DNA from: Candidatus Methanophagales archaeon
GTDB lineage: Archaea; Halobacteriota; Syntropharchaeia; Alkanophagales; Methanospirareceae
Direction of reading: 5' to 3'
Length of the DNA stretch: 64,000 nt
Assembly: GCA_003336485.1 (NCBI GenBank)
Contig: QENH01000200.1
Location: 7,510 to 71,509 of the forward strand
Of this stretch, positions 884 through 40,513 are shown one piece after another (position 1 is the stretch's first letter; every line of letters begins with the position of its first letter). The notes beneath the pieces were generated by a model that saw only the letters and a program-made list of their open reading frames with translations, did not search any database and was not told where the DNA came from. Position numbers and translations under genes: made by a program.

Positions 884-930
884 CCGAAAGAATTTTATAG
901 ATTAATACACTATAAGCAAAGAGGCAGACT

Positions 931-1896: not shown

Positions 1897-2545
1897 TGTC
1901 TCGGTAGCGAAGACCGCGGAAATAATGAAAAACGTGGAATTGGGAAAAAATGTAGAGATAGGAGACTTCGTTATAATCGGCATTCCCCCAGAAGGCAAGA
2001 AGGAAGGAGAACTTAAGACTGTCATAGGCGATTCTGCCATCATAAGATCTCACACCGTGATCTATGCTGGTACGGTTATAGGAAACAATTTTCAAAGCGG
2101 CAACCATACAGCCATAAGGGAGGGAAATATTATAGGAACTAATGTTAGCATAGGTACAATGAGTGTGGTCGAGTTCAAAACCAAGATAGCAGATAATGTC
2201 CGGATTCATTCCCAAGCATTCATTCCCGAATATTGCGAACTCCATGAGGGATGTTGGATAGGCCCAAACGTAGTGCTGACCAACGCGCCATTCCCAAAAT
2301 CAGCCAAGTCCAAAGAATTCCTGAAGGGTGTCATCATATCCGAAGCTGCAAAAATTGGGGCCAATTCGACTATTCTGCCGGGAGTAAAGATTGGCAAAAA
2401 TGCCTTGGTTGGTGCGGGCAGCGTTGTTACAAAAGATGTGCCTGACGGCAAAGTGGTTGTAGGAAACCCGGCAAAAGTTGTCCGGGACGTTTTTGAATTG
2501 AAATATCCCACAGGCGAAAAGGCATATGAAGAGGGTGAAACATGA
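1889..2545 (+). CDS. Left-handed beta-helix (hexapeptide repeat) sugar N-acetyltransferase (WbpD-like)
   Basis: Repeated [LIV]-G-x-x-x-x hexapeptides (IGDSAIIRSHTVIYAGTVIGNN...). The start is placed at MINVSV, with GGAGA 10 nt upstream and an 8-nt overlap with the upstream gene. The ORF-track start at 1841 lies inside the upstream gene. Confidence 0.75.
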   Translation: MINVSVAKTAEIMKNVELGKNVEIGDFVIIGIPPEGKKEGELKTVIGDSAIIRSHTVIYAGTVIGNNFQSGNHTAIREGNIIGTNVSIGTMSVVEFKTKIADNVRIHSQAFIPEYCELHEGCWIGPNVVLTNAPFPKSAKSKEFLKGVIISEAAKIGANSTILPGVKIGKNALVGAGSVVTKDVPDGKVVVGNPAKVVRDVFELKYPTGEKAYEEGET

Positions 2546-3642: not shown

Positions 3643-3645
3643 GCC

Positions 3646-4536
3646 TCATTTATAGCCTCTCTCATTCTCTTGCAGATAGCGCCCAATTTCTGCTTTCAAC
3701 TCTTCTTGTTCTAACGCAAAATCGATAATCGCTTTTATATAGCCCGTCTTATCTCCCGCATCATATCTCTTACCTTTGAACGAATAAGCAAGAACTTCTT
3801 CCTTATCCATCAGCAGTTTAATAGCGTCCGTAAGCTGGATTTCTGTTCCACTTCCCGGCTTCGTCTCCCTGATACAATCGAATATCGCAGGTGTGAACAC
3901 ATAACGCCCAACGGTACCTATGTTAGACGGGGCTTCTTCTATACTCGGCTTTTCTATTATCTCTTCTATGCGGTAGATGAATTCCTCTATTTCTCGCCCT
4001 TTTATCATCCCATAACTGCTCACCTTCTCTTTTGGAACCTTTTCGACAGCAATTATTGATTTGTTATAGCGCCCAAACAAATTCGTGAGTTGCTTAATGC
4101 AAGGTATCTCCGCCTTTATTATATCATCGCCTAATAAGATAGCGAAAGGTTCATTGCCTACATGCTTTTCTGCCTTTAAAACAGCATCGCCCAAGCCTCT
4201 TGGCTCCTTCTGTCTTATGTAATGGATGTCAACTAAGGCGGATATATCTTTTATTTCTCTCAATAGCGCATATTTCTTATTCTTGAATAAATGGCTTTCC
4301 AGTTCGGGCGAGGTATCAAAATAATCCTCGATAGCCTTTTTGCCCCTGCCGGTAACGATTATAAGATCTTCAATTCCTGCTGCTATTGCTTCTTCAACGA
4401 CAAATTGGATGATTGGGGTATCTATAATAGGTAACATCTCCTTGGGCATGGATTTTGTAGCAGGGAGAAATCTAGTTCCTAATCCTGCTGCAGGTATTAC
4501 CGCTTTCCTTATCGTTTGCTCTGCCATCTTACCCAC
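3646..4536 (-). CDS. Sugar-1-phosphate nucleotidyltransferase (UTP-glucose-1-phosphate uridylyltransferase GalU/AglF-like)
   Basis: N-terminal AVIPAAGLGTRFLPATKSMPKEMLP is the canonical GalU/RmlA G-rich loop. Length is 296 aa. Confidence 0.8.
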   Translation of the reverse strand: MGKMAEQTIRKAVIPAAGLGTRFLPATKSMPKEMLPIIDTPIIQFVVEEAIAAGIEDLIIVTGRGKKAIEDYFDTSPELESHLFKNKKYALLREIKDISALVDIHYIRQKEPRGLGDAVLKAEKHVGNEPFAILLGDDIIKAEIPCIKQLTNLFGRYNKSIIAVEKVPKEKVSSYGMIKGREIEEFIYRIEEIIEKPSIEEAPSNIGTVGRYVFTPAIFDCIRETKPGSGTEIQLTDAIKLLMDKEEVLAYSFKGKRYDAGDKTGYIKAIIDFALEQEELKAEIGRYLQENERGYK

Positions 4537-4648
4537 TTAACCTAGTTTTAATAAATTAAAGCGGACATATATCGCTAATTATATATATGTACCACGCCAG
4601 TAATTATTTTATACTATCTAAGATTTAAGAACTAATAGTGAGTGGGAA

Positions 4649-7249
4649 ATGGATAAAATAAGTATAAATATGAAAGGGCTAGAAAAAACATCAATAATCT
4701 ATGGTGTCATATTGGCGCTGATATTCTGTGTTTCGCTTGCTATACGGGGTGTTTTACCATATGCGAGTGTTTTTACTGATACATTCGTCAAATTTGGCGG
4801 GAATGACCCTTGGTATAAGATGCGAGTGGTGGAAAACATGCTGCAGAACTTCCCGCATCGTATTTACTTCGACCCGTTCACATATTATCCTCATGGTACG
4901 CATTTGGGCGTTGGACCGTTATTTGATTACTTGCTTGCGGTTATTATATGGCTAATCGGGCTTGGGAACCCTTTCGCTACTTTAGGTCAGCAGGGAATAG
5001 AAGTAATAGGCGCCTGGTATCCTGCCGTTTTGGGCGCTCTTACTGTTTTACCGGTCTATTTTATAGGAAAAGAATTATGGGGCAGGAATGCCGGCATTCT
5101 CTCCGCAGCCCTAATCGCTATTCTCCCGGGACAGTTCTTATCCCGTTCTCTATTGGGCTTCACAGACCATCACGTTATGGAAACGCTATTCAGTACGATA
5201 GCAATCCTATTCATCATTTTAGCGATAAAGGCGGCGAAGAAGAATGGAATAACATTTCATACCATATTGGAGAAGGATTGGACTTCTTTGAAGAGGCCAA
5301 TGCTTTATTCCTTCTTCGGCGGCATATTCCTCGGAAGTTATTACCTCGCGTGGATGGGTGCCTCACTCCTCATCTTTGTTCTGATTATCTTTGCAGCGGT
5401 GCAGTATGTGCTAGACCATGTAAGAGGCGTAAGCACTGATTATCTTTGCATTATTGCCGTCCCGGTTTTTATTATTTCGTTACTGATGATTGCCCCCGTG
5501 CCATATATTGGCTCTCTAACGGGCATTTCGTTTATTTCGCTTCTCCTTGTAATAGCTGTATTTCTTATTTTGAGTGCTCTTTCAGTTTTGATGGACAGGA
5601 AGAAAATGAACCCTTATGGGTATCCTATTGCGATATTGGCTGTTGCTGTATCATCCATCATCATTTTGAGCGCTTTGAGTCTACCCATATACTCAAAGAT
5701 TATCGGAGCGCTTCATGTCTTTATTCCTTCTGCGTCCAGTTTGACCATAGCTGAAGTTCATCCAATGCATATTATATCACAATATACCGGTAAGTTCACC
5801 GATGGTGAAGCCTGGCGCTGGTTCACCACGCCCTTTTTCGTTGCCTTCGCTGCTTTTCCCTTGATCGGCTATAACATAGCGAAGAAATTCAGGGCAGAAG
5901 AGATGTTGATCCTTGTATGGAGTGTGGTAATGCTGTTTGCATGTTTTGGGCAGAATAGGTTCGCGGCATATTATGCAGTGAACGTTGCTCTTCTCTGTGG
6001 ACTCGTTTCCTGGAAGCTAATTGAGTTTGTATGGCTTAGAGGCGCGGGCGATGCGGTAGAAAAAGCGGGGGTGAAGATAAAGGGGAAGACGAAAGGGGGA
6101 GCAGGTATGGAGAAGGCGAAGCCTAATAAAAAAGTGCATAATGATGAGAAGAGACCGGAAATGGATAAAGTAAAGCGGTATTTACGTCCGGAGCTCATAA
6201 TTACGTGCATCATCATAGGCGTAGTTGTATTTATCCCACCGCTAAATGCTTCTTTAGCAAGTGCGAAATATGGTGGCGGTCCTGCTGACGATTGGTACGA
6301 ATCTCTCTCCTGGATGCGGAATAACACGCCCGATACAGGTGTTGACTATTATGCACACTATGACCGACCACCGATAAATGAAACAACCGGTAGAATAGAG
6401 GATTATAACTATCCGGAATCGGCATATTCGGTAATAAGCTGGTGGGACTATGGACATTGGATTACGCGCATCGCTCGTAGGATTCCCGTTGCCAATCCGT
6501 TCGGGCAGCAGGGCATAGGGGGGCCGTATCGTGGGAACGACCCCGGTGCGTGCCTATTCTTCGTTACAACGAACGTAAGCGAAGCGAACAATGTTGCCGA
6601 TGCGCTTGACGTGAAATATGTAGTGACAGATTTCATGATGGCCGATGCATTCAACGCATTTTATAATAAATTCGGTGCAATGACCGTTTGGTTTGGCGAT
6701 ACAGAAGGATATTACACTCAAGTTGTCACTGATGATGGTCCTCAAATAGGGCCAAGTACAAAGTATTTCAGCACGATGGTGGCACGACTTCACATATTCG
6801 ATGGTCGGGGTGTAGCACTAAGTGAAGAGTTCTATCTGGAGCCGTTACGCCATTACCGGCTTATTCACGAATCGCCCAGTAGCATAATTGTCATGGGTGG
6901 GCAACCGATAAAATATGTTAAGGTCTTCGAATACGTAGAAGGTGCGAAGCTAAAAGGAACCGCACCTATTGGTTCCATAGTGGAAATAGCGACAAATGTG
7001 TCTACAAATACGGGGCGCGAATATATCTATGCCGAGCGAATGATGTCAAATGGCACATACGAGTTCCCCGTGCCGTATTCAACGGCGGGGCCGATAGAAG
7101 GCGGCACGAATTTTGACGTTTTCGCATCGCCATATAAAGTGAGTGTAGGGTATGTAACAAACGCAACGGTGGCATGGACAGAGGCGAAGGAGATTAATGT
7201 GCCGGAAGAGGCAGTAATGGACGGCAAAATGATAACGGTGAATTCGTAA
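4649..7249 (+). CDS. aglB: Archaeal oligosaccharyltransferase AglB (STT3 family)
   Basis: 866 aa with a multi-TM N-terminal half, the STT3 hallmark WWDYG (SWWDYGHWI) and a soluble C-terminal domain. Confidence 0.9.
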   Translation: MDKISINMKGLEKTSIIYGVILALIFCVSLAIRGVLPYASVFTDTFVKFGGNDPWYKMRVVENMLQNFPHRIYFDPFTYYPHGTHLGVGPLFDYLLAVIIWLIGLGNPFATLGQQGIEVIGAWYPAVLGALTVLPVYFIGKELWGRNAGILSAALIAILPGQFLSRSLLGFTDHHVMETLFSTIAILFIILAIKAAKKNGITFHTILEKDWTSLKRPMLYSFFGGIFLGSYYLAWMGASLLIFVLIIFAAVQYVLDHVRGVSTDYLCIIAVPVFIISLLMIAPVPYIGSLTGISFISLLLVIAVFLILSALSVLMDRKKMNPYGYPIAILAVAVSSIIILSALSLPIYSKIIGALHVFIPSASSLTIAEVHPMHIISQYTGKFTDGEAWRWFTTPFFVAFAAFPLIGYNIAKKFRAEEMLILVWSVVMLFACFGQNRFAAYYAVNVALLCGLVSWKLIEFVWLRGAGDAVEKAGVKIKGKTKGGAGMEKAKPNKKVHNDEKRPEMDKVKRYLRPELIITCIIIGVVVFIPPLNASLASAKYGGGPADDWYESLSWMRNNTPDTGVDYYAHYDRPPINETTGRIEDYNYPESAYSVISWWDYGHWITRIARRIPVANPFGQQGIGGPYRGNDPGACLFFVTTNVSEANNVADALDVKYVVTDFMMADAFNAFYNKFGAMTVWFGDTEGYYTQVVTDDGPQIGPSTKYFSTMVARLHIFDGRGVALSEEFYLEPLRHYRLIHESPSSIIVMGGQPIKYVKVFEYVEGAKLKGTAPIGSIVEIATNVSTNTGREYIYAERMMSNGTYEFPVPYSTAGPIEGGTNFDVFASPYKVSVGYVTNATVAWTEAKEINVPEEAVMDGKMITVNS

Positions 7250-10076: not shown

Positions 10077-11366
10077 ATGAACGACAATTCTAGCACCGTC
10101 AAGTGGGAAAAGAAGGAATTAGAGAAAATTTCTTTGGCTGAAGGAGTTAACGTGGAAAAATTGGAACAACTCCTTGGAGCAGGTCAAGTGGTAATCCCAA
10201 AAAACGCAAAGAGGGCAGAGAAGGGAGACATAACGCTAAAAGCTATTGGCGCTGGGATGAGTATGAAAGTGAACGTTAACGTAGGTACGTCAACGGATTA
10301 TGTTAGCGTCGAGGAAGAAGTAAGAAAGGCAAAGGTAGCGGTAGAATACGGCGCGGATGCCATAATGGACCTCTCCACTGGTGGAAACCTCGCTGCAACC
10401 AGGAGAGCGATTTTGAAAGAGGTAGATGTGCCAGTAGGGACGGTCCCGATATACCAGGCGGCTTTAGAGAAGGCTGATGAACGGGCAGTAGTGGACATGA
10501 GTTCCGATGACTTGTTCAATGCGGTAAGGACCCATGCAAAAGACGGAATAGATTTTGTCACCATTCATGCCGGTGTCAATCAGAATTCGTTGGCACGATT
10601 GAAACTTAGCGGGCGCATATTAGATGTTGTCAGTCGCGGTGGCGCGTTCCTCGTTGCTTGGATGATACATAACGAGCGTGAGAATCCATTTTACGCCGAA
10701 TATGATTACCTGTTGGAAATAGCGAACGAGTATGATTTAACGCTCAGTTTGGGCGATGGTATGCGTCCAGGTTGCGTTTCCGATGCTTCCGACCGTGCCA
10801 AATTTGCAGAAGCTATTACACTTGGCGAACTCGTGAAACGAGCTCGTGAAGAAGGTGTACAGGCAATGGTCGAAGGCCCGGGACATGTGCCATTAGACGA
10901 AATAGAAGCATCTGTAAAGATAATAAAGCATGTAACTGATTTTGCACCGCTTTACCTCTTAGGGCCTCTTGTTACTGACATCGCACCCGGATACGACCAT
11001 TTCGTGAGTGCGATCGGTGGTGCGGTTGCGGGGATGTACGGTGCGGACTTCCTATGTATGGTTTCGCCATCAGAGCATTTGGCGTTGCCATCAGTGGACG
11101 ACATAAAGGAAGGCACGATCGTAACGAAGATAGCTGCGCATGTCGCAGACCTTGTAAGAGAGGGGCAACGAGAAAAGGCGAGACAATTAGATGCTGAGAT
11201 GGCTCATGCAAGGAAAGGCCTCGATTGGAAAAGGCAATTTGAGCTCGCGATGAACCCTGAGGAAGCGATGAGAATAAGAAATAGCAGACTCTCGAAAAGC
11301 GATGCATGCTCTATCTGTGGCGATCTGTGCGCGATAAAGATGGTGAAGGAGTGTTTGGAGAAATGA
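10077..11366 (+). CDS. thiC: Phosphomethylpyrimidine synthase ThiC
   Basis: 429 aa with a conserved radical-SAM-type C-terminal CxxCxxxxC ([13 protein letters not shown]) and an overall ThiC-like sequence. Confidence 0.9.
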
Positions 11367-11486
11367 TTTTGAGTTTGAGGGACTTAAACCAAGAGAATTA
11401 TATTAATTCCGCATCTTGTTCATTTTATGTGCTCTTAATGTAAGCAAATAGGATCTGTTTCTTCTACTTATGGTCTTTTATATGAC

Positions 11487-11534
11487 CTTGACGAATAGAA
11501 TAATGCAAAAAGATATGAGGTGAAAAAGAAGAAA
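11487..11534 (+). promoter_or_regulatory. Conserved 5' leader/promoter block shared by the three beta-helix paralogs. The other copies are at 14288-14322 and 16057-16107.
   Basis: The block ATGACGAATAGAATAA(A)TG(C/A)AAAAG recurs immediately upstream of each paralog start. Confidence 0.4.
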
Positions 11535-13940
11535 ATGAAAAAACCAATAGCAATTTTATTGATAGCTGCAATATTAACGCTAGGCATAGCTACAAGTGCA
11601 CTGCCATTCTCATTCTCAACTTGCGCAACTACAAATAACCAAGGATCTCCACTACTGGCAACAGCCATGCCAGCACTAGCACAAGGTAGCAATGGCACTC
11701 CTAGCGAAGGCGACGCCAGTAGTATGGAAATTCCCCCGAATGCTGAGGAAAATGAGATAACAACGGGCAAGGAGTACTTAAACACCATACAAATGGACGG
11801 TTCTTCATCAGCTCTTTCACATGATGATACAAAGCTTCCATACAACTCTTCGGGTAACAGACAAAAAGGCAGAGATATGCATACATTAGGGAAAATACCG
11901 AGTGAATCGGAACAGCCAGTAGAAGTATCAAAACCACCATTGAAAGGATCTAAACAGCCAGTAAAAGTATCGAAACCGCCAATTAAAGAATCCAAACAAC
12001 AATTAGTACATAATATAAACACAGGCGAGGACTTCACCACGATCCAAGCAGCAATAGATGATCCTGATACATTGGATGGACATACGATTACGGTTGATCC
12101 GGGAACGTATACGGAGAATGTAGCTGTTTACAAGTCTTTAACTATACACTCAACCACAGGTAATCCATTAGATACGATTGTTCAGACGAATTCTGATGAC
12201 CATGTCGTTAATGTATCTGCGGATTATGTGAACATAAAGGGGTTTACGGTGTCGGTGATAGATGATTGGATGAAGGCGGGAATATATCTCGGAAGCGGAG
12301 TGGATCACTGCACCCTCTCTGATAATAATATGACAGATACTTGGTGGGGCATCTATCTAGATCATTCCAACCACAACTATCTCTCTAACAATAACGCCTG
12401 GTATAACGAGTATGGCATCTCTCTGGATTATTCCAGCAACAACTGTCTCTCTAACAATAACGCCTGGTATAATAACGAGTATGGCATAGGTCTATCTCAT
12501 TCCAGCAACAACTGTCTCTCTAACAATAATATCTCGGATTTTAACTTTTATAGCATCTACCTATTGGAATCTAGCAACAACTCCATCTCTAACAATAATC
12601 TCTGGAATAACGAGGATGGCATATACCTATCTTATTCCAGCGACAACTATATTTCTAACAATAATGGTTGGGCTAACAATGGTTATTTCATTAGGCTGTC
12701 GCATTCCAGCAACAACCATATTTCTAACAATAATGCATGGTCAAACTTCTTGGGTGGTATCCGTTTGTCACATTCCAGCAACAACACGATCTCCAACATT
12801 AATACTTCGAACAACGATTTCTTTGGCATTTGTCTATCTGATTCCGACAACAACGGTCTCTATAACAATAATGTCTCGAACAACGGGGATTATGGTATCT
12901 GCCTCTCTTCCTCGAGTAGCAACACCATCTACAACAACTACTTCAACAACACGAACAACGCCTATGATGATGGAACCAACATCTGGAACATCTCAAAAGA
13001 AAATGGACCAAATATCATTGGTGGTGACTATCTTGGTGGGAACTATTGGAGCGATTACACGGGCATAGATGAAGATGGCGATGGACTTGGAGATACTTTG
13101 CTACCATACAACTCTTCTGGTGAGATCCAAAATGGCGGTGATTTGCGGCCATTAGTTACAGCGTGTTTTACACCGCCGGAGATCACTTCTTCCGCCCCTC
13201 TTTCTCCGGTTAACGATACAATATGCACATGGCGGACATTTAACGTTACGGTAGATCAGACGGTGAACGTGCGCTGGTATTTGAACGATATGTTATTATT
13301 CACGAACCTAAGTGTGCGAAAAGCCGATTGCACACTCCATGCAGAGGTTGTGGGAGAACACAACGTAACAGCAAATGCATCGAATGCAAATGGCTCTGAT
13401 CTGCAGACCTGGATCTGGAATGTGACTGGTTTTACTGCGGAGCCGCCTGAAATAACATACTATGCCCCCAAATCGCCGGTTAACGATACCCGAAATGCAA
13501 CAAGGACATTCAACATCACAATCAATCAATCAGTAAATGTTAGTTGGCAGATAAACGGCACGACAGTTCAGGCCAATGAGGGTCTAACCGAAGCATCATA
13601 CACGAATACAAGTGCGGTCATTGGGACCTGGAACGTTTCTGTGATTGTAAGCAATGCAAATGGGACCGACATGCAGACGTGGATATGGACTGTAACATCA
13701 CCATGTTTCATAGCAACAGCAGCATATGGGACGCCATTGCACGGAGATATAGACGTTTTGAGAGATTTCCGAGACGAATATCTGATGTCGAATCCAACCG
13801 GGAGAGCATTTGTAAAAGTTTATTATAATGCAAGTCCCCCAATTGCTGATTGGATAAGGGCGAATGAAGGATTGGGAACTGCTGTACGGGAAGGTTTTGT
13901 TAAACCATTAGTGTATGTTACGAGGATGTTTGTAGGCTGA
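11535..13940 (+). CDS. Secreted right-handed parallel beta-helix (PbH1/NosD-like) repeat surface protein, paralog 1
   Basis: Signal peptide [22 protein letters not shown] (ORF-track start at 11520 adds a K-rich extension). Sequence features in order:
- K/P-rich 11-aa repeats ([11 protein letters not shown]);
- ~22-aa PbH1 repeats (GIxLxxSSNNxxSNNN);
- NosD-like tail [28 protein letters not shown];
- two ~90-aa Ig-like repeats;
- a conserved C-terminal CFIATAAYG domain. Confidence 0.8.
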
Positions 13941-14322
13941 GCGGGGATATTTTGAACTGAATTCTGTCATCGCGATAACACGTCCCAAAGTTGGCTCTTC
14001 GTCCGTCCAGAACTCCCACATATCTTCATCACACGCCGAGTCATATATTCGCGGTGAATTCTCAGTATTGTCTGTCTCACCCTTATCCCGGTCATTGGTG
14101 AGCCAAGCAGTAGAGGAGAGCAACAATAATTTTTGAAGGGTGTATAGCGCGGTTTATTTCGATTATTCAGCCCTGCTTGTGGAGTCGAAAGAGGTTTCTA
14201 CTTTTGGAGTTATAAGGTCACAACTTGTTTATACGTTATCAACACACCAAAATAACACCTGTTCATTCTACCGAGGGTGTTTTATATCAACATGACGAAT
14301 AGAATAAATGAAAAGGAAAAAA

Positions 14323-15876
14323 ATGAAAAACCCAATAGCAATTTTATTGATAACTGCAATATTAACGCTAGCCATAGCTACAAGTGCACTGCCATTCTCG
14401 GCTTGCGCAACTACAAATAACCAAGATTCTTTGATACGGGCAACAGCCATGCCAGCACTAGCACAAGATAGTAAGGATACTCCCTGCGAAGACAACGCCA
14501 ATAGTATGGGATTTGCCCCGAACGCTGAGGAAAATGAGATAACAACGGGCAAGGAGGGCTTAGACACCATACAAATGGACGGGTCTTCATCAGCTCTTTC
14601 GCATGGCGATACAAAGCTACCATACAACTCTTCTGGCAACATAAAAAATGGCGGAGATCTGCATACATTAGAGAAAAAATCGAGTGGATCGAAACCGCCA
14701 GTGAAAGTATCGAAACAGCCGGTGAAAATATCGAAACCACCCGTGAAAGTATCTAAACTACTTTTAGTTCATAATAGGGACACCGGCAAGAACTTTGCTA
14801 CGATACAGGCTGCGATTGATGATTCTGATACCGTAGATGGGCATACGATTATGGTTGATCCAGGAACGTATACGGAAAATATAGTTGTTTACAAGTCTCT
14901 AACGATCAGATCAACCACAGGTAATCCGGCGGATACGATTGTCCCGGCTGCGGATTATAGAGCTCATGTCTTTAATGTGACCGCGGATTATGTGACTATA
15001 CGCGGGTTTACGGTATCGGGGGCAAATGATTATGATACACTGCCGGCCGGAATATATCTGGGAAACGGAGTGGATCACTGCAACATCTTAGATAATAATC
15101 TAATTGACAATTGGAGGGGCATCGATATATACTATTCCAACAACAACGGTCTCTCTAACAATAACGCCTGGTATAACGAGTATGGCATCGGTCTATCTCA
15201 TTCTAGCAACAACTGTCTCTCTAACAATAATATCTCGAATTTTAACCATTATAGCATCTACCTATTGGAATCTAGCAACAACTCCATCTCTAACAATAAT
15301 CTCTGGGATAACGAGTATGGCATATATCTGTCTTATTCCAGCAACAACTATATTTCTAACATTAATGGTTGGGCTAACAATTGTCATCTCATTACGCTGT
15401 CACATTCCTGCAACAACCATATTTCTAACATTAATGCATGGTTAAACTTCTATGGGGGTATCAGTTTGTCACATTCCAGCAACAACTCTATCTCAAACAT
15501 TAATACTTCGAACAACGATTTCTTTGGCCTCTATCTATCGGATTCCGACAACAACTGTCTCTATAACAATATTGTCTCGAACAACGGGGATTATGGTATC
15601 TACCTCTCTTCTTCTAGTAGCAACACCATCTACAACAACTATTTTGACAACACGAACAATGCTTGGGATGACGGAAGCAACATCTGGAACATCACGCCGA
15701 CCTTAGGCGAGAATATCATTGGCGGTTGCTTGCAGGGAGGTAATTATTGGAGCGATTACACGGGCATAGATGAAGATGGTGATGGACATGGAGATACAAT
15801 GCTACCATACAACTCTCCTGGTGAGATACAAAATGGCGGCGATTTGCGACCATTGGTACCTAGAACGTTTTTATGA
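14323..15876 (+). CDS. Secreted beta-helix repeat surface protein, paralog 2 (lacks the C-terminal domain)
   Basis: It has the same signal peptide and N-terminal region as paralogs 1 and 3, PbH1 repeats and the NosD-like tail, but ends at ...GDLRPLVPRTFL with no Ig-like or CFIATAAYG domain. Confidence 0.7.
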   Translation: MKNPIAILLITAILTLAIATSALPFSACATTNNQDSLIRATAMPALAQDSKDTPCEDNANSMGFAPNAEENEITTGKEGLDTIQMDGSSSALSHGDTKLPYNSSGNIKNGGDLHTLEKKSSGSKPPVKVSKQPVKISKPPVKVSKLLLVHNRDTGKNFATIQAAIDDSDTVDGHTIMVDPGTYTENIVVYKSLTIRSTTGNPADTIVPAADYRAHVFNVTADYVTIRGFTVSGANDYDTLPAGIYLGNGVDHCNILDNNLIDNWRGIDIYYSNNNGLSNNNAWYNEYGIGLSHSSNNCLSNNNISNFNHYSIYLLESSNNSISNNNLWDNEYGIYLSYSSNNYISNINGWANNCHLITLSHSCNNHISNINAWLNFYGGISLSHSSNNSISNINTSNNDFFGLYLSDSDNNCLYNNIVSNNGDYGIYLSSSSSNTIYNNYFDNTNNAWDDGSNIWNITPTLGENIIGGCLQGGNYWSDYTGIDEDGDGHGDTMLPYNSPGEIQNGGDLRPLVPRTFL

Positions 15877-16107
15877 TTGTACGCAATGTTTTGGCTGCAC
15901 AATGAGATTTTTTTATATATATATCAAGCCAAAATGTTCTAGCAAGCAGGTAGCGGCATTTTCCACTTGAAGAGTAAAAAACCCCTATCGTACCCATTTT
16001 ATGAGTCCCTAACACCTATGAATATGACATATTCACCCAACCTATGTCTTTTTATGCAGATATGATGAATAGAACAAATGCAAAAGTATGATGTGGAAAA
16101 GATAAAA

Positions 16108-19100
16108 ATGAAAACCCCAATAGCAATATTATTAATAGCCGCAATATTAACGCTAGCCATAGCTACAAGTGCACTCTCATTCTCGGCTTGCGCAACTACA
16201 AATAACCAAGAATCTTCGACATTGGCAACAGCCATGCCAGCACTAGCACAAGGTAGCAATGGTACCCCTAACGAAGACGACACCAGTAGTAGGGGATTTA
16301 CCCCGGATGCTGTGGCATGTGTCTTAACAAAGGACGTGGTGGCCTTTGATACCGTACAAATGGACGGTTTTGCATCTGCCCTTTCGCATGAAGATACAAC
16401 GCTTCCATACAACTCTTCGGGTAACAGACAAAAAGGCAGAGATATGCATACATCAGGGAAAATACCGAGTGAATCGGAACAGCCAGTAGAAGTATCAAAA
16501 CCACCATTGAAAGGATCTAAACAGCCAGTAAAAGTATCGAAACCGCCAATGAAAGAATCCAAACAACAATTAGTACATAATATAGACACAGGCGAGAACT
16601 TCACCACGATACAAGCTGCGATTGGTGATCCTGATACCGAGAATGGGCATACGATTACGGCTGATCCGGGAACGTATACGGAGAATGTAGTTGTTTACAA
16701 GTCTTTAACTATTCGCTCAACCACAGGAAATCCAGCAGATACGATTGTTCAGGCGGCGGATTCCTATGATCATGTCGTTAATGTGACTGCGGATTCTGTG
16801 ACTATAAGCGGGTTTACGGTGTCGGCGATAGATGGATATGCTGCAGGGATATATCTTGGAAGCGGAGTGGATCACTGCAATATCTCTGATAATAATGTAA
16901 CTGTCACTTATGGGTCGGGTATATATCTAGATTGTTCTAGCAACAACCTTATCTCTAACAATAATGCCTGTGGTAACGGGCCATCTGGCATCGAGCTGTC
17001 TCATTCCAACACCAATACTATCGTTAACAATACTGCAGACTATAATGACGAATATGGAATCCATCTGGATTATTCCAGCAACAACTTCATCTCTAACAAT
17101 AATGCCAGCGGGAATAACGGGCATGGCATCTATCTATCTCATTCCAACAACAACTCTCTTTCTAGCAATAATGTCTCGCAGTGTTGGTATGGCATCTATC
17201 TATCTCATTCCAACAACAACTCTCTTTCTAACAGTAATGTTTGGGGATTCGATGATGATGGCATCAGTCTATATTATTCTAGCAACAATTCGCTCTATAA
17301 CAATAACGTCTGGCTTAGCAGTGGTACGGGCATCCGTCTGTCATCTTCCAGCCACAACTCGCTCTCTAACAATAATGTCTTTAGTAACCTTGCTTTTGGC
17401 ATCGCGCTATATGGATCCAGCAACAACTCTCTTTCTACTAATACCCTAGAAAATAACGATTATGGCATCGAGCTGTCTCATTCCACCTGCAACTCGCTCT
17501 ATAACAATAATGTCTTGAAGAATGATGAGCATGGCATCCACCTCTCTTCTTCAGATAGCAACCTCATCTACAACAACATTTTCAACAACACGAACAACGC
17601 CTATGATGATGGAAGCAACATCTGGAACATCACAAAAGAATATACCCCAAACGGGAACATCATTGGCGGTCCTTACTTAGGGGGGAACAATTGGAGCGAT
17701 TACATGGGCATAGATAAAGATGGCGATGGACTTGGAGATACTTTGATGCCATACAACTCTTCGGGCGACATCCAAAACGGCGGCGATTTGCGGCCATTAG
17801 TGGAACCATCTGAACTACCAGTACATAATACAAACACAGGCGAGAACTTCGCCACGATACAAGCTGCGATTGATGATCCTGATACCGTGAATGGGCATAC
17901 GATTACGGCTGATCCGGGAACGTATATAGAGAATGTAGTTGTTTACAAGTCTTTAACTATGCACTCAACCTCAGGAAATCCATCAGATACGATTGTTCAG
18001 GCGGCGGATTCCTATGATCATGTCGTTAATGTGACTGCGGATTATGTGACTATACGCGGGTTTACGGTGTCGGGGGCATCATATGGATGGGATATAGCGG
18101 GAATATATCTTGGAAGCGGAGTGGATCATTGCACCATCTCTGATAATAATATAACTGACAATGGGTGGGGCATCTATCTGGATCATTCCAGCCACAACCA
18201 TCTCTATAACAATAATGTCCGGGGTAACGTCGGCGTTAATGGCGGCGGAATCAGGCTGTCATATTCCGGCGGCAACACTCTCTCTAACAATAACGTCTTG
18301 AACAACGAGGATGATGGCATCTGGCTATATCATTCCAACAACAACACTCTCTCTAACATTAATGCATCGCATAACTACTTTGGCATCATTCTGTCACATT
18401 GCAGCAACAACTCGCTCTTTAATATTGATGCTTCTAACGCATTCGCAAGCATATGGCTCTCTCAATCCAGCAACAACTCGCTCTTTAACATTAATGCCCG
18501 CCACAGCTCTGGTGACGCCGGCATTGTGCTGTTTCAATCCAGCAACAACTCGCTCTCTAACATTAATGCATCGGATGTCATGGGTTATCCTGGCATACAC
18601 CTCTCATCTTCCAGCAACAACTCGCTCTTTAACATTAATGCCTTTAACAACTTTTTAGGCATCGAGCTGTCAGATTCCAGCAACAACACTCTCTATAACA
18701 ATAATGTCTCGAATAACTATCTGTGGGGCATCGAGCTGTCACATTCCTCCTGCAACTCGCTCTATAACAATAATGTCTCGAACAATTATGATCTTGGCAT
18801 CCGCCTCTCTTCTTCAAACAATAACCGCATCTACAACAACATTTTCAACAACACGAACAACGCCTATGATGATGGAACAAACATCTGGAACATCACAAAA
18901 GAATATACGCCAAACGGGAACATCATTGGCGGTACTTACTTAGGGGGGAACAATTGGAGCGATTACATGGGCATAGATGAAGATGGCGATGGACTTGGAG
19001 ATACTTTGCTGCCATACAACTCTTCGGGCGACATCAAAAATGGCGGCGATTTGCGGCCTTTAGTGGAACCATCTGAACTACCAGTACATAATATAGACAC

Positions 19101-20616
19101 AGGCGAGAACTTCGCCACGATACAAGCTGCGATTGATGATCCTGATACCGTGAATTGGCATACGATTACGGCTGATCCGGGAACGTATACGGAGAATGTA
19201 GTTGTTTACAAGTCTTTAACTATTCGCTCGACCACAGGAAATCCATCAGATACGATTGTTCAGGCGGCGGATTCCTATGATCATGTCGTTAATGTGACTG
19301 CGGATTCTGTGACTATAAGCGGGTTTACGGTGTCGGGGGCACCAAGTTGGGATAGTGCAGGGATATATCTTGGAAGCGGAGTGGATCTTTGCACCATCTC
19401 TGATAATAATATAACTGACAATGGGAGGGGCATCTATCTGGATCATTCTAGCCACAACACTCTCTCTAACAATAATGCCCTGAAGAACTTTTGGTGTGGC
19501 ATCTATCTAGATTATTCCAGCAACAACAAGCTCCTCAACAATACTATCTTTCGAGGCGATTATGGCATCTATCTGGATTATTCCAGCAACAACTTCCTCT
19601 ATAACAATACTGTCGATTGGAGCGGTATGGAAGGCATAATTATGTCACATTGCAGCAACAATTCGCTCTTTAACAATAATGCCTGGGGTGTCAATGGTCC
19701 AGGCATCCATCTATCTTCTTCCAGCAACAACAACAATCTCTCAAACAATAATGCCTGGCATAACCTTGATGGTATCATTCTGTCACATTGCAGCAACAAC
19801 TCGCTCTTTAACAATAACGCCTGGTATAACGAGTATGGCATAGGTCTATATCATACCAACAACAACACTCTCTCAAACATTAATGCATCGCATAACGACT
19901 TTGGCATCTATCTGTATCATTGCAGCAGCAACTCGCTCTTTAACAATAACGCCTTTAACAACTATTTTGGCATCGAGCTGTCACATTCCAGCAACAACTC
20001 TATCTCAAACATTAATACATCGAACAACGATTTCTTTGGCATCTATCTATCTGATTCCGACAACAACTGTCTCTATAACAATATTGTCTTGAAGAATGAT
20101 GAGCATGGCATCCACCTCTCTTCTTCAGATAGCAACCTCATCTACAACAACATTTTCAACAACACGAACAACGCCTATGATGATGGAAGCAACATCTGGA
20201 ACAGCACAAACACCACGGGACCGAACATCATTGGTGGACCTTATATTGGCGGTAACTATTGGTCTGATTATGCAGGTATTGATTCGAATCATGATGGTTT
20301 TGGCGATACGCCTTATAATATACCGCCAGGCGGCATTAGCAAAGATTATTTACCGCTGGTTCCTGTTGAACCATCACCATGTTTCATAGCAACAGCAGCA
20401 TATGGTACGCCATTGCACGATGATATAGACGTTTTGAGAGATTTCCGAGACGAATATCTGATGATGAATCCAACAGGGAGAACATTTGTAAAAGTTTATT
20501 ATACATTGAGTCCACCGGTTGCGGATTTGATAAGGGGAAATGAAGGACTGGGAACTGCTGTACGGGAGGGTTTTGTTAAACCCTTAGTGTATGTTACGAG
20601 GATGTTTGTAGGCTGA
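16108..20616 (+). CDS. Giant secreted beta-helix repeat surface protein, paralog 3 (three tandem NosD-like modules)
   Basis: The same signal peptide is followed by three ~420-aa modules, each starting [22 protein letters not shown] and ending ...[13 protein letters not shown], then the C-terminal CFIATAAYG domain. The ORF-track start at 16078 is an upstream in-frame ATG. Confidence 0.8.
16576..20345 (+). repeat. Three tandem ~1.25 kb coding modules inside paralog 3. They start near 16576, 17824 and 19087, with a period of about 1248-1263 bp.
   Basis: Read directly from the sequence. Module ends are about 95% identical at nucleotide level (for example 17650-17822 vs 18900-19083), while interiors differ in PbH1 repeat content. 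Confidence 0.85.
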
Positions 20617-20636
20617 GCGGGGATATTTTATTCCAT

Positions 20637-21221
20637 TTATGTGAAAAACTTCTCGTTCAGAATCTCAATCGCATCCTTCTCTCTACGCCCGCCGCATTTT
20701 TCGACTATGTCCGCATAATGTACCATCTCTTTTTTTAGCTCTTCCTGTTCTCGTTCATCCCTGGTCATTTTATACCGCGTTGCGAGTATAGTAGCTTCAA
20801 TCACCGCATTAAGCCCCCTATTTATCGCTTTTAGCTCATTCCAATTGATTTTCACTGCTATGGGCGTCAATTGAAAGATGGAATATACACCGCTCTTCTC
20901 TTCTAAAACCGCCCGGAATATTATCCCCGATTGCGCTTCTTTTAGTACCGGAAATCCGGAAAGAGCTGAATAATGCGATTTGTCCAACTTCTCAAATGCC
21001 GCTTTCACGAATAAGACCGCGTCACAGGTTACATTCGCGGCTAATTTGTCCGTTTCCGTCACGTTAGAAAGGGTTCTTGAACCTTTGTATAGTTTCACAA
21101 AATGCCCGTTTGTTGTTGTTATTATACCAATAGGGGCAGCATTGAACGTGCCCACAGCGGATCTCGAGGTAACTATTACTTCTGATATGCCCTCGTCTAT
21201 GCCAGCTTCTCTTATGTTCAT
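20637..21221 (-). CDS. DUF447-like protein (predicted flavin-binding split barrel)
   Basis: 194 aa. It resembles methanogen DUF447 proteins, but the family assignment comes from memory and is not computed. Confidence 0.4.
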   Translation of the reverse strand: MNIREAGIDEGISEVIVTSRSAVGTFNAAPIGIITTTNGHFVKLYKGSRTLSNVTETDKLAANVTCDAVLFVKAAFEKLDKSHYSALSGFPVLKEAQSGIIFRAVLEEKSGVYSIFQLTPIAVKINWNELKAINRGLNAVIEATILATRYKMTRDEREQEELKKEMVHYADIVEKCGGRREKDAIEILNEKFFT

Positions 21222-26901: not shown

Positions 26902-27774
26902 CTACCTCTTTTTCAACCGGTTACTTATAGAAGGATAGAAGATAAATGCCAGAGGCACGAGGAATAGCATGACGATTGCCACTTTGCCTGTGGCCGAGCC
27001 AGAAGAGAAGAGGGTAAGAAGAATAGGGTCTTCCTTTTGTACCTCAAAGAGGTAGGGGACGGTATCGCCCATGAACTCCTTTGTTCTATTGAGAATGCCA
27101 TCGTAAGAGCCGTTACGCGATGCGAGAGCTGAGATACGGACCATAGTAACGGTATTTGACGCGAAAGTTTCCTTCACGTAGAAATAAAGCACGACCCTTC
27201 GCTCTGTTACCTTCCCTTCTTCCTTTGATTCCTTCGTGACAATGAGCTTCTTTGCTGCTATCGTCTCATTAAAGACTAAACCATGTTCTCTTTCATACTC
27301 TTCCGACCGCCAAAATCCGGCTGCCCAACTTACATTATGCACCGGCACCTCTGCTATGCCTTCCTCTTTTATCGTATAGCCCAACGCGGGATAGCAAACA
27401 ATAGGCGGATGGAAGCTAGAGCGGTTATTTGATTGCATGATGAGAAAGAATACCGGCTGGTAATATTTCGGATGCGAGTATGCACGCATGAGCATTACGT
27501 CCGCGTTCAAGCGTTCTGCAAGACCTGTCGTGTTGTACTCATAGGCAGTCCAATTCCCTAGCTGCTCTGGGAACTTCTGTAGGTGCTCGTTGTTTCCGAA
27601 GTCCATCTTTGTTCGAACAGGCGTGGCATCGTCAGAAGCATACGAGAGCTCGGTATCTATCGTGGTGATCGTTCTGGCGAGTATCATAGACGGTGTTGAA
27701 AAGACGATGATAATAACGAAAACGAGCAAAAGGAGCCCTATGACCCGTGAATATTCTTCAAAGAAACTCCTCAT
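26902..27774 (-). CDS. Archaeosortase-associated protein, possible EpsI analogue
   Basis: 290 aa with an N-terminal TM, a large extracytoplasmic domain and a C-terminal TM. Its start is a 4-nt ATGA overlap with the stop of the archaeosortase gene, in the same gene order as bacterial epsH-epsI. Confidence 0.4.
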   Translation of the reverse strand: MRSFFEEYSRVIGLLLLVFVIIIVFSTPSMILARTITTIDTELSYASDDATPVRTKMDFGNNEHLQKFPEQLGNWTAYEYNTTGLAERLNADVMLMRAYSHPKYYQPVFFLIMQSNNRSSFHPPIVCYPALGYTIKEEGIAEVPVHNVSWAAGFWRSEEYEREHGLVFNETIAAKKLIVTKESKEEGKVTERRVVLYFYVKETFASNTVTMVRISALASRNGSYDGILNRTKEFMGDTVPYLFEVQKEDPILLTLFSSGSATGKVAIVMLFLVPLAFIFYPSISNRLKKR

Positions 27775-28628
27775 TTCGTTCTCCCCGTAACTTTACACCC
27801 AAAGAGACTACTTATTAGTATCAAGAATATAAGCGCGATGATGAATAGCAGGGGGCTGAAAAGGGTATGGTAAAATCCTGTTGCCGTCTCCGCGCCATAT
27901 GCGTTTGCAATTAGTAGTAGAGATGTAACCCGGATGATATTGGCGAGGATTGCAAGAGGGGGCGTTATACAGAGCAAGATGATCTTCTTATACAACGGGC
28001 ACCGTAAAATGTAGATGAATAGCGTTGCTATTGCCAATAGCGAGATGAGCGAATTCATGCCGCTGCATGGCAAACCGATAATGAAAGCGGCATCTTCAAG
28101 CCGAATCTCCGCCCCTATCCGTGTAACGGGAATACCAAGCATTTCGAGAATTAATGCAGGGAAATATGCAGACAGAGTTTGTAGTGCGTTTGCGACTTTT
28201 CCCAGGAACTCTGGTGGCAATGGGATAGCGAAGATAAGATAGGCGATTGGAAATATGAGAGTGCGCATCAGAGGTTTACCATAGAAATAAAGGATCAAAC
28301 CGCTTGTTGTGAATAAGAATGATAGCGCGGATAAGAAAGGGAAGAGCTTGATAATGCCGATGATATAAAGGATAAGGCCAAAGGCGAAGACGTAGATTCC
28401 TGGTTTACAGGGTTCCTGATTGTCTCCCGGCTCGCTCTTCTTATAGTCTCTGACATTCCACCACGCGATAACGCATGATATAATTAGGATCAAGAACCCA
28501 TGTGTGTAGCACGGATCGGTCCGCCAGAAACTGGCTAACCATATCGGTATAAAGTTGGAAAAAGGCGATGGGAAATATAAAATGACTAAGAGCAGCAAGA
28601 TAAAAATAGTGGTCTTCTTCATCTTCAT
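27771..28628 (-). CDS. Archaeosortase (exosortase/archaeosortase family transpeptidase)
   Basis: 285 aa, polytopic. It carries the family catalytic motif PCSGMNSL (Cys), a conserved Arg in NIIRVTSLL, and an N-terminal lysine-rich stretch followed by a TM. Confidence 0.7.
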   Translation of the reverse strand: MKMKKTTIFILLLLVILYFPSPFSNFIPIWLASFWRTDPCYTHGFLILIISCVIAWWNVRDYKKSEPGDNQEPCKPGIYVFAFGLILYIIGIIKLFPFLSALSFLFTTSGLILYFYGKPLMRTLIFPIAYLIFAIPLPPEFLGKVANALQTLSAYFPALILEMLGIPVTRIGAEIRLEDAAFIIGLPCSGMNSLISLLAIATLFIYILRCPLYKKIILLCITPPLAILANIIRVTSLLLIANAYGAETATGFYHTLFSPLLFIIALIFLILISSLFGCKVTGRTK

Positions 28629-40503: not shown

Positions 40504-40513
40504 GCCAACCTCT

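What the first reader, a model, noticed from the sequence alone, without database searches (positions are those of the whole stretch)
16576..20345. Three ~1.25 kb intragenic tandem modules inside the 1512-aa paralog
Each module (~420 aa) begins [21 protein letters not shown]...[15 protein letters not shown] and ends ...[15 protein letters not shown]. Module boundaries are ≥95% identical at nucleotide level, while the PbH1-repeat cores differ in repeat number and sequence. The gene is therefore a concatenation of three NosD-like units, whereas paralogs 1 and 2 have one each. Long near-identical intragenic repeats like these are hot spots for expansion and contraction. They are also classic short-read assembly errors.
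Basis: seen in the sequence. Interest (0 to 1): 0.6.

Follow-up and report, generated by a model that had tools for sequence, protein, structure and literature searches.

The report
Three-module beta-helix surface protein, ANME-1
A methane-oxidising archaeon (ANME-1) encodes a large cell-surface protein made of three copies in a row of a "NosD-like" beta-helix unit; the ends of the copies have recently been homogenised by recombination, and this layout is common in the protein family.

Summary
The ORF at 16078-20616 (1512 aa) has a signal-peptide leader, three complete NosD-like beta-helix modules (16573-17820, 17821-19083, 19084-20373) and a CFI-box C-terminal domain. The upstream paralogs (11520-13940, 14308-15876) have one module each.

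Two corrections:
- The 267-nt module starts are 92.5-95.5% identical, not at least 95% throughout.
- Only modules 1 and 2 end in [14 protein letters not shown]. Module 3 has a different, unrelated tail.

Synonymous divergence is 0.01-0.03 in the module starts and 0.7-0.76 in the cores. The boundary identity therefore reflects recent gene conversion or recombination, not protein-level selection alone.

An assembly artefact is unlikely:
- The longest exact repeat is 119 nt.
- The three cores are unique.
- The two junctions differ at 34 of 616 positions.

Reads are still needed to prove the module count.

The layout is ordinary for the family. Of the 120 best homologues, 74 carry at least one internal module-to-module junction and 25 carry two or more.

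The three-gene cluster is lineage-specific. It sits between thiC and a DUF447 gene, which are adjacent in eight related ANME-1 genomes. No orthologue exists for comparing module counts.

Verdict: a real feature and a new member of a known kind. Interest is low to moderate.

The parts
16078..20616 (+). 1512-aa gene: leader + three beta-helix modules + CFI-box C-terminal domain. The conserved start MK(T)PIAILL suggests the real start is at 16108.
   Evidence: ORF list; translation; Pfam NosD 2.9e-148 and Beta_helix 1.8e-93; NCBIfam CFI_box_CTERM 1.1e-24; conserved upstream region and start.
16078..16572 (+). Leader: hydrophobic signal sequence, a fossil module tail (about 16389-16461, ...[11 protein letters not shown]...) and PVKVSKP heptad repeats (21-nt tandem repeat, 16471-16565).
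   Evidence: D13 repeat family. P2 leader against the module tail scored 92, versus 27 +/- 5 for shuffles.
16573..17820 (+). Module 1 (416 aa, 11 G-I-x-L coils).
17821..19083 (+). Module 2 (421 aa). AlphaFold2 model: right-handed parallel beta-helix, residues 1-357 mostly at pLDDT >90. The 60-aa tail is at pLDDT <50.
   Evidence: Foldseek best matches: AlgE4 A-module, tailspikes, NosD and AlgG.
19084..20373 (+). Module 3 (430 aa, 12 coils) with a different tail (…[11 protein letters not shown]) that leads into the CFI-box domain.
   Evidence: The tail is closer to tails in other organisms (69-75% aa) than to the M1/M2 tails.
16565..16831 (+). N-cap repeat, copy 1 (copies 2 and 3 at 17813-18079 and 19076-19342). 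92.5-95.5% nt identity; dS 0.009-0.027.
   Evidence: D9.
17464..18079 (+). Junction-spanning repeat, copy A (M1 tail + EPSELP linker + M2 cap).
   Evidence: 94.5% identical to 18727-19342 (582 of 616). Longest exact run 72 nt.
18727..19342 (+). Junction-spanning repeat, copy B (M2 tail + EPSELP linker + M3 cap).
20085..20203 (+). 119-nt tract identical to 17511-17629 in module 1. This is the longest exact repeat in the cluster and marks a conversion tract between M1 and M3.
19954..20237 (+). Tract in module 3 related to paralog 2 (15442-15725, 82%). The 69-nt window at 19981 is 97% identical to the window at 15469.
   Evidence: D7.
20380..20571 (+). CFI-box C-terminal domain ([10 protein letters not shown]...). 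The region 20372-20616 is 91.5% identical to 13696-13940 in paralog 1.
11520..13940 (+). Paralog 1 (806 aa): leader + one module + two ~90-aa repeats + CFI-box domain.
14308..15876 (+). Paralog 2 (522 aa): leader + one module, no C-terminal domain. Its core is closely related to the paralog 1 core (dS 0.15).
10077..11366 (+). thiC, the left flank of the lineage-specific 9.25-kb cluster.
   Evidence: Pfam ThiC_Rad_SAM 7.5e-178. thiC and DUF447 are adjacent in related ANME-1 genomes.
20637..21221 (-). DUF447 gene, the right flank of the cluster. Its stop codon lies 20 nt from the stop codon of the 1512-aa gene.

Best explanation
This is a genuine three-module, secreted and C-terminally anchored beta-helix protein of an ANME-1 (Methanophagales) archaeon.

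Each module is a complete NosD-like/CASH-type right-handed parallel beta-helix. It has a conserved ~85-aa N-terminal cap, 11-12 variable 22-24-aa coils, and a conserved ~60-aa tail (GGNxWSDY...DGDGLGD...PLV).

The gene arose within a local family of three tandem paralogs by in-register unequal recombination that joined module tail to module cap. Non-reciprocal recombination (gene conversion) among the five modules is still occurring. It has recently homogenised the caps and the M1/M2 tails and has left short mosaic tracts elsewhere. The cores are old and divergent.

Shown:
- the architecture
- the fold
- the mosaic pattern
- the contrast in synonymous divergence
- that multi-module layouts are usual in the family
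- that the cluster is lineage-specific

Inferred:
- The protein projects from the cell as a string of three ~7-nm beta-helical rods. This assumes ~15 turns at 4.8 A rise per turn, from general knowledge of beta-helices.
- The variable coil surfaces bind or process glycans, or mediate adhesion.
- The direct repeats allow in-frame loss or gain of whole modules.
For: Architecture:
- One intact ORF with three VHNxxTGENF starts.
- NosD, Beta_helix and parallel-beta-helix repeat hits, plus a CFI-box C-terminal domain.

Fold:
- AF2 mean pLDDT 86 and pTM 0.85, with a beta-helix over residues 1-357.
- Foldseek matches to the AlgE4 A-module, tailspikes, NosD and AlgG at probability 1.00.
- Profile match to NosD 7o0y at 1.8e-10, including the GNYWSDY...DGLGD tail motif.

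Recombination rather than selection:
- Cap dS is 0.009-0.027 against core dS 0.71-0.76.
- M1-M2 tail dS is 0.08.
- Between paralogs, cap dS is 0.25-0.48.
- Concordant sites are clustered, with permutation p <= 0.0005 for six of ten pairs.
- Exact tracts of 119, 96, 90 and 72 nt link different partners.
- Some out-of-register coil matches reach 84-89%.

Cores are truly divergent. The best match for any core 69-mer anywhere in the cluster is 62-84%.

Family context:
- Homologues carry 2-5 complete modules joined by '...PLV[26 protein letters not shown]'.
- Two independent multi-module genes (L081, L082) show the same pattern of similar ends and divergent cores at the DNA level.
- The orthologues P0001 and P0002 differ by whole-coil indels in the cores, while caps and tails show far fewer amino-acid changes (pN 0.00-0.15 against 0.14-0.32 in the cores).

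Own promoters: ~110 nt upstream of each paralog is conserved and includes a TTTTATAT box.

Island: thiC and DUF447 are adjacent in L001, L002, L003, L009, L045, L036, L037 and L038.
Against: - No reads, so three modules and their order are not independently verified.
- No orthologue was found, so gain or loss of modules has never been observed for this gene.
- The direction and timing of conversion cannot be separated from a recent triplication followed by replacement of the cores from donors outside the window.
- Function is inferred only from fold and domain names. No catalytic residues were identified. AlphaFold2 did not fold the conserved tail (pLDDT <50).
- The role of the CFI-box domain as an anchor is assumed from its position and family name.
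Confidence: 0.8

Rival explanations
1. Assembly artefact. The module number or order is wrong because an assembler mis-joined or duplicated sequence across the ~95%-identical junction repeats, or merged strain variants or paralogs from elsewhere in the genome.
For: Two 616-nt direct repeats at 94.5% identity and three 267-nt caps at 92.5-95.5% lie within 4 kb. Many exact repeats of 60 nt or more would tangle a de Bruijn graph at small k. The genome is probably metagenome-derived, since no identical protein is on record.
Against: - The longest exact repeat is 119 nt, and the longest within the junction repeat is 72 nt. Ordinary 150-nt reads can therefore tell the copies apart.
- The copies are not perfect duplicates, unlike a loop artefact.
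- Each of the three cores is unique.
- The tail-EPSELP-cap junction cannot come from single-module genes, and the two junction copies differ at 34 sites.
- The reading frame stays open over 4.5 kb with no Ns.
- Multi-module genes with the same junction type were assembled independently in many other samples.
Confidence: 0.08
2. The near-identity of the boundaries reflects only strong purifying selection on structurally essential caps and tails after an old triplication. No recent recombination is involved.
For: Caps and tails are conserved across the whole family, at 75-84% aa identity to caps in distant organisms, against 43-55% for cores. In the orthologues P0001 and P0002, pN is 0.00-0.15 in caps and tails and 0.14-0.32 in cores.
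Against: - Selection on the protein does not remove synonymous differences. Cap dS within the gene is 0.009-0.027, yet 0.25-0.48 against the neighbouring paralogs and 0.7 or more in the cores.
- Most of the few cap differences are non-synonymous (12.5 non-synonymous against 0.5 synonymous for M1-M2). That is the opposite of what pure purifying selection predicts.
- Mosaic tracts switch partners along the module.
Confidence: 0.03
3. A dedicated variation system. The conserved caps and tails serve as recombination handles, so that beta-helix cores are swapped or whole modules added and dropped at high frequency. This would diversify the cell surface against viruses or for partner recognition.
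For: - Mosaic conversion tracts link all five modules.
- All repeat offsets are in frame.
- Cores are hypervariable and indel-prone between orthologues.
- The cluster is a lineage-specific island at a site that carries restriction-modification cargo in another ANME-1 genome.
Against: - No recombinase, reverse transcriptase or silent-cassette array was found next to the cluster.
- dN/dS in the cores is 0.37-0.66, not above 1.
- No population data show switching.
- Ordinary homologous recombination between paralogs explains the pattern equally well.
Confidence: 0.08
4. A true NosD, the accessory protein that matures nitrous-oxide reductase.
For: Pfam NosD hits. TIGR04247 scores 306.5 against a cutoff of 300 for the 1512-aa protein. 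There is a sequence match to P. stutzeri NosD.
Against: - The TIGR04247 score passes only because three modules are summed. The single-module paralogs score 100-105 against the cutoff of 300.
- No Met is conserved among the five modules, so a conserved His-Met-Met site is absent.
- The ORFs of 150 aa or more that were scanned across the window gave no Pfam match to any nos-operon family.
- The gene carries a signal peptide and a C-terminal sorting-type domain.
- Similar NosD-like proteins in methanogens and ANME-associated viruses are regarded as non-canonical (PMC13452462, PMC12904285).
Confidence: 0.01

Closest known systems
Multi-domain 'NosD domain-containing / CASH domain-containing / parallel beta-helix repeat' surface proteins of Methanophagales (ANME-1) and Methanosarcinales (for example P0018, P0029, P0040, P0062, P0001 and P0002)
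   Same: - Same module type, with a [19 protein letters not shown] cap and a GGNYWSDY...DGDGxGD...PLV tail.
- Same short tail-to-cap linkers.
- 2-5 modules per protein.
- Some share the same CFI-box C-terminal domain (P0018, P0069, P0078, P0088).
   Different: - The best overall identity is only 45-60%, so there is no orthologue.
- This copy has unusually recent homogenisation of its caps (dS ~0.01-0.03, against pS 0.15-0.44 in L081 and L082).
- It sits in a three-paralog island between thiC and DUF447.
Canonical NosD of the NosDFY complex (P. stutzeri, PDB 7o0y/7osf)
   Same: Right-handed parallel beta-helix with a similar coil repeat and the C-terminal GNYWSDY...DGLGD motif.
   Different: A single module that works with NosF, NosY, NosL and NosZ and has a His-Met-Met copper site (PMC13452462). 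Here there is no conserved Met, no nos gene context, three modules, a signal peptide and a C-terminal sorting-type domain. Single modules score well below the TIGR04247 cutoff.
Azotobacter vinelandii AlgE mannuronan C-5 epimerases (A-modules; PDB 2pyg, 5lw3)
   Same: Best structural match to the module. From my own knowledge, AlgE1-7 are secreted modular proteins in which beta-helical A-modules and R-modules are repeated in varying numbers among paralogs.
   Different: Only 14-15% sequence identity. No R-modules are present. No epimerase catalytic motif was identified or tested here.
Bacterial surface proteins with long near-identical intragenic tandem repeats (for example the group B Streptococcus alpha C/Rib family and staphylococcal SasG/Aap) - from my own knowledge
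   Same: Direct in-frame repeats of whole folded units in a surface-anchored protein. Such repeats are known substrates for copy-number change by homologous recombination.
   Different: In those proteins whole repeats are nearly identical. Here only the caps and tails are, and the cores are 54-79% identical. Copy-number change here would create hybrid modules and has not been observed.
Cell-wall-associated variable genomic islands of archaea (Haloquadratum walsbyi, PMC4535781, title and abstract only)
   Same: A lineage-specific island encoding surface proteins, inserted between conserved housekeeping genes.
   Different: A different organism and different protein families. The comparison rests on the abstract only.

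Membership tests
Right-handed parallel beta-helix (PbH1/CASH) repeat proteins | Tandem ~22-24-residue coils matching beta-helix repeat models | tested here: met
   Pfam Beta_helix 1.8e-93 in 9 stretches. TIGR03804 para_beta_helix 2e-112 in 20 stretches. 69-nt coil periodicity.
Right-handed parallel beta-helix (PbH1/CASH) repeat proteins | Three-dimensional beta-helix fold | tested here: met
   AF2 model of module 2: pLDDT mostly >90 over residues 1-357, with regular three-strand turns. Foldseek probability 1.00 to AlgE4, tailspikes, NosD and AlgG.
Archaeal multi-module NosD-like surface proteins (Methanophagales/Methanosarcinales) | Two or more complete modules joined tail-to-cap by a short linker (...PLV-x(3-7)-VHNxxTGExF) | tested here: met
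   Two such junctions occur in the gene. The same junction type occurs in 74 of the 120 best homologues, and 25 have two or more.
Archaeal multi-module NosD-like surface proteins (Methanophagales/Methanosarcinales) | N-terminal signal sequence and a C-terminal sorting or anchor domain | tested here: inconclusive
   A hydrophobic N-terminus [23 protein letters not shown] was read from the sequence. No signal-peptide predictor was available. CFI_box_CTERM NF041770 scored 86 bits against a cutoff of 40. The anchoring role of that domain is not established.
Canonical NosD (TIGR04247, N2O-reductase maturation) | Score above the curated family cutoff for one NosD unit | tested here: not met
   Single-module paralogs score 104.6 and 100.3 against the cutoff of 300. 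The 1512-aa protein reaches 306.5 only by summing 6 stretches from three modules.
Canonical NosD (TIGR04247, N2O-reductase maturation) | Conserved His-Met-Met copper site (as described in PMC13452462) | tested here: not met
   No Met column is invariant among the five modules. Each module has only 2-3 Met, at non-corresponding positions. In the HMM alignment, the NosD segments GVHYMF, GYALMQS and GILMNY face GIYLS-type coils. The exact motif residue numbers were not verified.
Canonical NosD (TIGR04247, N2O-reductase maturation) | nos operon context (nosZ, nosF, nosY, nosL) | tested here: not met
   The neighbours are thiC and DUF447. The ORFs of 150 aa or more that were scanned across the window gave no match to any nos-operon family.
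Contingency / antigenic-variation loci | Observed high-frequency variation in repeat or module number, or cassette exchange, within a population | not testable with these tools
   No reads are available. No orthologous or same-species sequence was found in any collection.

The most novel reading that the evidence does not exclude
The conserved cap and tail segments may act as built-in recombination handles. Through them ANME-1 cells would shuffle beta-helix cores among tandem paralogs and add or drop whole modules in frame. The thiC-DUF447 island would then be a surface-variation locus comparable to bacterial antigenic-variation systems, possibly driven by the large ANME-1 virome or by partner recognition.
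Probability: 0.1. Interest if true: 0.55.

Novelty: new member of a known kind. Interest (0 to 1): 0.27.

Why it matters
ANME-1 archaea are uncultured and important in the methane cycle, and their cell surface is poorly known. This locus shows that their abundant NosD-annotated genes are not denitrification genes. They are modular beta-helix surface proteins that evolve by module concatenation, coil gain and loss, and gene conversion.

For annotation, the practical point is that the three-module protein passes the NosD family cutoff only because three modules are summed.

For assembly quality control, the locus is a place where long reads should be checked, although the sequence gives no sign of error.

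As a discovery it is incremental, because the same architecture is widespread in public data.

Tried and rejected
1. Orthologue search for module-count polymorphism:
- Exact-protein look-ups of the flanking genes found nothing.
- The protein database gave no relative above ~60% identity.
- A metagenome scan with the whole protein found nothing.
- A scan with the module alignment reached at most ~50-57% identity over whole modules.
- The thiC-anchored scan of GTDB genomes found close ANME-1 relatives (thiC 90-93%), but they lack the cluster entirely.

2. Coil-register shuffling as the cause of core divergence was rejected. No core 69-mer has a near-identical copy anywhere in the cluster.

3. 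Positive selection in the caps was not pursued further. The excess of non-synonymous changes (about 13 non-synonymous against 1-2 synonymous) is suggestive, but the numbers are too small to be significant by my own rough binomial estimate.

4. N-glycosylation sequon enrichment was rejected. The 1512-aa protein has 47 sequons against 43 +/- 5 expected from composition.

5. Structure of the tail and junction was not resolved. Two AlphaFold2 runs, one of a module alone and one of tail + linker + next cap, both left the 60-aa tail at pLDDT <50. The geometry between modules is therefore unknown.

6. Literature:
- No paper mentions CFI-box-CTERM.
- No paper holds the terms 'ANME', 'parallel beta-helix' and 'surface' together.
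- The residue numbers of the NosD His-Met-Met motif could not be retrieved.
Full report
**1. Observation**

The + strand carries one intact ORF at 16078-20616 (1512 aa). Its translation contains three VHNxxTGENF module starts, at aa 166, 582 and 1003. These correspond to nt 16573, 17821 and 19084.

The repeat finder returns a 261-nt family at 16565, 17813 and 19076 (94-97% identity). It also returns a 300-nt family at 17464 and 18727 (94%), whose third copy at 20038 is only 65% identical.

The protein alignment of the three modules with the single modules of the upstream paralogs (11520-13940, 806 aa; 14308-15876, 522 aa) is collinear. Module lengths are 416, 421 and 430 aa, with 11, 11 and 12 G-I-x-L coils.

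Codon-aligned nucleotide identity:

| Region | Identity |
|---|---|
| First 80 codons, among M1/M2/M3 | 93-100% |
| Cores | 54-79% |
| Last ~110 codons, M1 vs M2 | 90-97% |

Two details of the finding need correction:
- Over 267 nt the caps are 92.5%, 95.1% and 95.5% identical. They are not uniformly at least 95%.
- The ending [14 protein letters not shown] exists only at the two internal junctions. Module 3 ends ...[16 protein letters not shown] and runs into the C-terminal domain.

The unit that is really repeated at high identity is a 616-nt junction-spanning segment of tail + EPSELP linker + next cap. It occupies 17464-18079 and 18727-19342, with 582 of 616 positions identical.

**2. What the protein is**

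Domain matches:
- Pfam NosD (2.9e-148, 7 stretches) and Beta_helix (1.8e-93, 9 stretches).
- NCBIfam parallel-beta-helix repeat (20 stretches).
- A CFI-box C-terminal domain at aa 1435-1498.

The N-terminus is a hydrophobic signal-like sequence that is conserved in all three paralogs.

An AlphaFold2 model of module 2 has mean pLDDT 86 and pTM 0.85. It is a regular beta-helix over residues 1-357. The best structural matches are the AlgE4/AlgE6 A-modules, phage tailspikes, NosD and AlgG. A profile of the five modules matches P. stutzeri NosD (7o0y) at 1.8e-10, including the GNYWSDY...DGLGD tail motif.

The conserved 60-aa tail stays at pLDDT <50. This is true both in the single module and in a tail + linker + cap construct. 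How successive modules sit relative to each other is therefore unknown.

The protein is not a canonical NosD:
- The single-module paralogs score 100-105 against the TIGR04247 cutoff of 300. The three-module protein reaches 306.5 only by summation.
- No Met is conserved among the modules.
- The ORFs of 150 aa or more that were scanned across the window gave no match to a nos-operon family.

Two recent papers reach the same view for NosD-like genes of methanogens and of viruses in ANME enrichments. They propose adhesion or envelope roles (PMC13452462, PMC12904285).

**3. Organism and locus**

The window carries formylmethanofuran:H4MPT formyltransferase, AglB, SecY, TBP and eRF1. Its ThiC is 90-93% identical to those of Methanophagales/ANME-1 genomes. 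The source is therefore an ANME-1 archaeon that is not itself in the collections.

In eight related genomes thiC and the DUF447 gene are adjacent and convergent. The spacer is a few tens of nucleotides in the five closest genomes (L001, L002, L003, L009, L045) and roughly 390 nt in L036, L037 and L038. In the window they are 9.25 kb apart, and the whole interval is the three NosD-like paralogs. The cluster is therefore a lineage-specific island.

In L017 the same spacer holds a HEAT-repeat ORF and a 1039-aa ORF that I read as restriction-methylase-like. I judged this by eye from the translation and ran no domain search on it. The site looks like a recurrent insertion spot.

About 110 nt upstream of each paralog is conserved and includes a TTTTATAT box. 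This fits whole-gene tandem duplication with separate promoters.

**4. Mechanism behind the repeat pattern**

Nei-Gojobori estimates:

| Segment | Pair(s) | dS |
|---|---|---|
| Cap | among M1/M2/M3 | 0.009-0.027 |
| Cap | M1-M3 vs paralogs 1 and 2 | 0.25-0.48 |
| Core | among M1/M2/M3 | 0.71-0.76 |
| Tail | M1 vs M2 | 0.08 |
| Tail | M3 vs M1 or M2 | saturated |
| Core | paralog 1 vs paralog 2 | 0.15 |

Purifying selection cannot erase synonymous differences. The caps and the M1/M2 tails must therefore share very recent ancestry, while the cores do not.

A Sawyer-type permutation test shows significant clustering of concordant polymorphic sites, with p <= 0.0005 in six of ten pairs.

The partner changes along the module. 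For example, module 3 is 97% identical to paralog 2 over the 69-nt window starting at 19981. It is then 100% identical to module 1 over 20085-20203, a 119-nt exact tract.

The cores are not simply re-registered copies of one another. No core 69-mer finds a match better than 62-84% anywhere in the cluster.

The simplest account has two parts:
- Modules were concatenated by in-register unequal recombination.
- Gene conversion then continued among the five modules, working most efficiently where protein-level constraint keeps the sequences similar (caps and tails).

The leaders of all three paralogs also contain a degenerate module tail (GDTxLPYNSSGxIxNGGDL). It scores 92, against 27 +/- 5 for shuffled sequence. 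It is followed by PVKVSKP heptad repeats and then the cap. Even the 'single-module' genes therefore descend from a tail-linker-cap junction.

**5. How ordinary it is**

An HMM of the module finds 2-5 complete modules in most of the 120 best database hits. Of these, 74 have at least one internal '...PLV-linker-VHNxxTGExF' junction and 25 have two or more.

Caps and tails are conserved family-wide, at 75-84% aa identity to distant organisms. Cores are 43-55% identical.

Two independently assembled four-module genes (L081, L082) show the same pattern of similar ends, divergent cores and mosaic tracts at the DNA level. Their products, P0001 and P0002, are orthologues. They differ by whole-coil indels in the cores, whereas the caps and tails show far fewer amino-acid changes.

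Coil-level expansion and contraction is therefore documented in the family. Module-level change is plausible but has not been seen.

**6. Assembly-error rival**

- The longest exact repeat in the cluster is 119 nt. Within the junction repeat the longest is 72 nt.
- The repeat copies differ at 3-7% of sites.
- Each core is unique.
- The tail-to-cap junction cannot be produced from single-module genes.
- There are no Ns, and the frame is open throughout.

A mis-join across the 616-nt repeats cannot be excluded without reads, but nothing in the sequence points to one. I put this at about 8%.

**7. Verdict**

The interpretation as a concatenation of three NosD-like units is supported. The expansion/contraction idea is mechanistically reasonable, because all offsets (1248, 1263, 2511, 2574) are in frame, but it is untested.

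Novelty is low. This is a new, locally homogenised member of a widespread class of modular beta-helix surface proteins in ANME and Methanosarcinales archaea.

The most novel reading still open is a dedicated surface-variation locus. It has no specific support beyond the mosaic pattern and the island context.

Noticed in passing
window 11367-20636; L017 6730-11503: The thiC-DUF447 spacer appears to be a recurrent insertion site in ANME-1. It is empty in eight related genomes. It holds the 9.25-kb NosD-like cluster here. In L017 it holds a HEAT-repeat ORF plus a 1039-aa ORF that looks restriction-methylase-like by eye (no domain search was run).
   Followed up: partly
window 16389-16565, 14600-14758, 11800-12005: The leader of each paralog contains a degenerate copy of the module tail (…LPYNSSGN…). 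This is followed by 21-nt tandem repeats encoding PVKVSKP heptads, just before the first cap.
   Followed up: partly
window 11400-11520, 14200-14307, 15970-16107: About 110 nt upstream of each of the three paralogs is conserved and includes a TTTTATAT (TATA-box-like) element. The conserved start MK(K/N/T)PIAILL implies the 1512-aa ORF probably starts at 16108, and that paralog 1 and paralog 2 probably start at internal ATGs a few codons into their ORFs.
   Followed up: partly
window 26902-28628 (-): An exosortase/archaeosortase-family gene (EpsH, 3.2e-51; below every subtype cutoff) lies next to an EpsI-like gene, about 6 kb from the cluster. Two PGF-CTERM proteins lie at 39367-40533 and 42846-43538. 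Whether the CFI-box domain is a substrate of this sortase is unknown.
   Followed up: no
window 11-7249: A block of glycosylation genes (GT2, oxidoreductase, hexapeptide transferase, DegT aminotransferase, nucleotidyl transferase) and the AglB oligosaccharyltransferase lie upstream. N-glycosylation sequons in the 1512-aa protein are not enriched beyond what its composition predicts.
   Followed up: partly
window 13176-13695: Paralog 1 carries two ~90-aa tandem repeats (…PPEITxxAPxSPVNDT…WIWNVT) between its module and the CFI-box domain. They have no Pfam match. Similar segments occur in L033 and L078.
   Followed up: no
window 16573-16831 vs 17821-18079: Nearly all the few differences between the homogenised caps are non-synonymous (M1-M2: 12.5 non-synonymous against 0.5 synonymous). 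The numbers are too small for significance.
   Followed up: partly
window 14308-15876: Paralog 2 stops right after its module (…LRPLVPRTFL*) and has no C-terminal domain. It could be a secreted, unanchored form or a truncated copy.
   Followed up: no
window 58501-61530 (-): A type I restriction enzyme R subunit (HsdR) gene lies next to a YgjP-like metallopeptidase gene.
   Followed up: no
window 15999-16607 (-), 11468-12040 (-), 16964-17449 (+), 18311-18658 (+): Long overlapping ORFs occur in other frames or on the other strand of the repeat genes. They are most likely by-products of the repetitive, low-complexity coding sequence.
   Followed up: no
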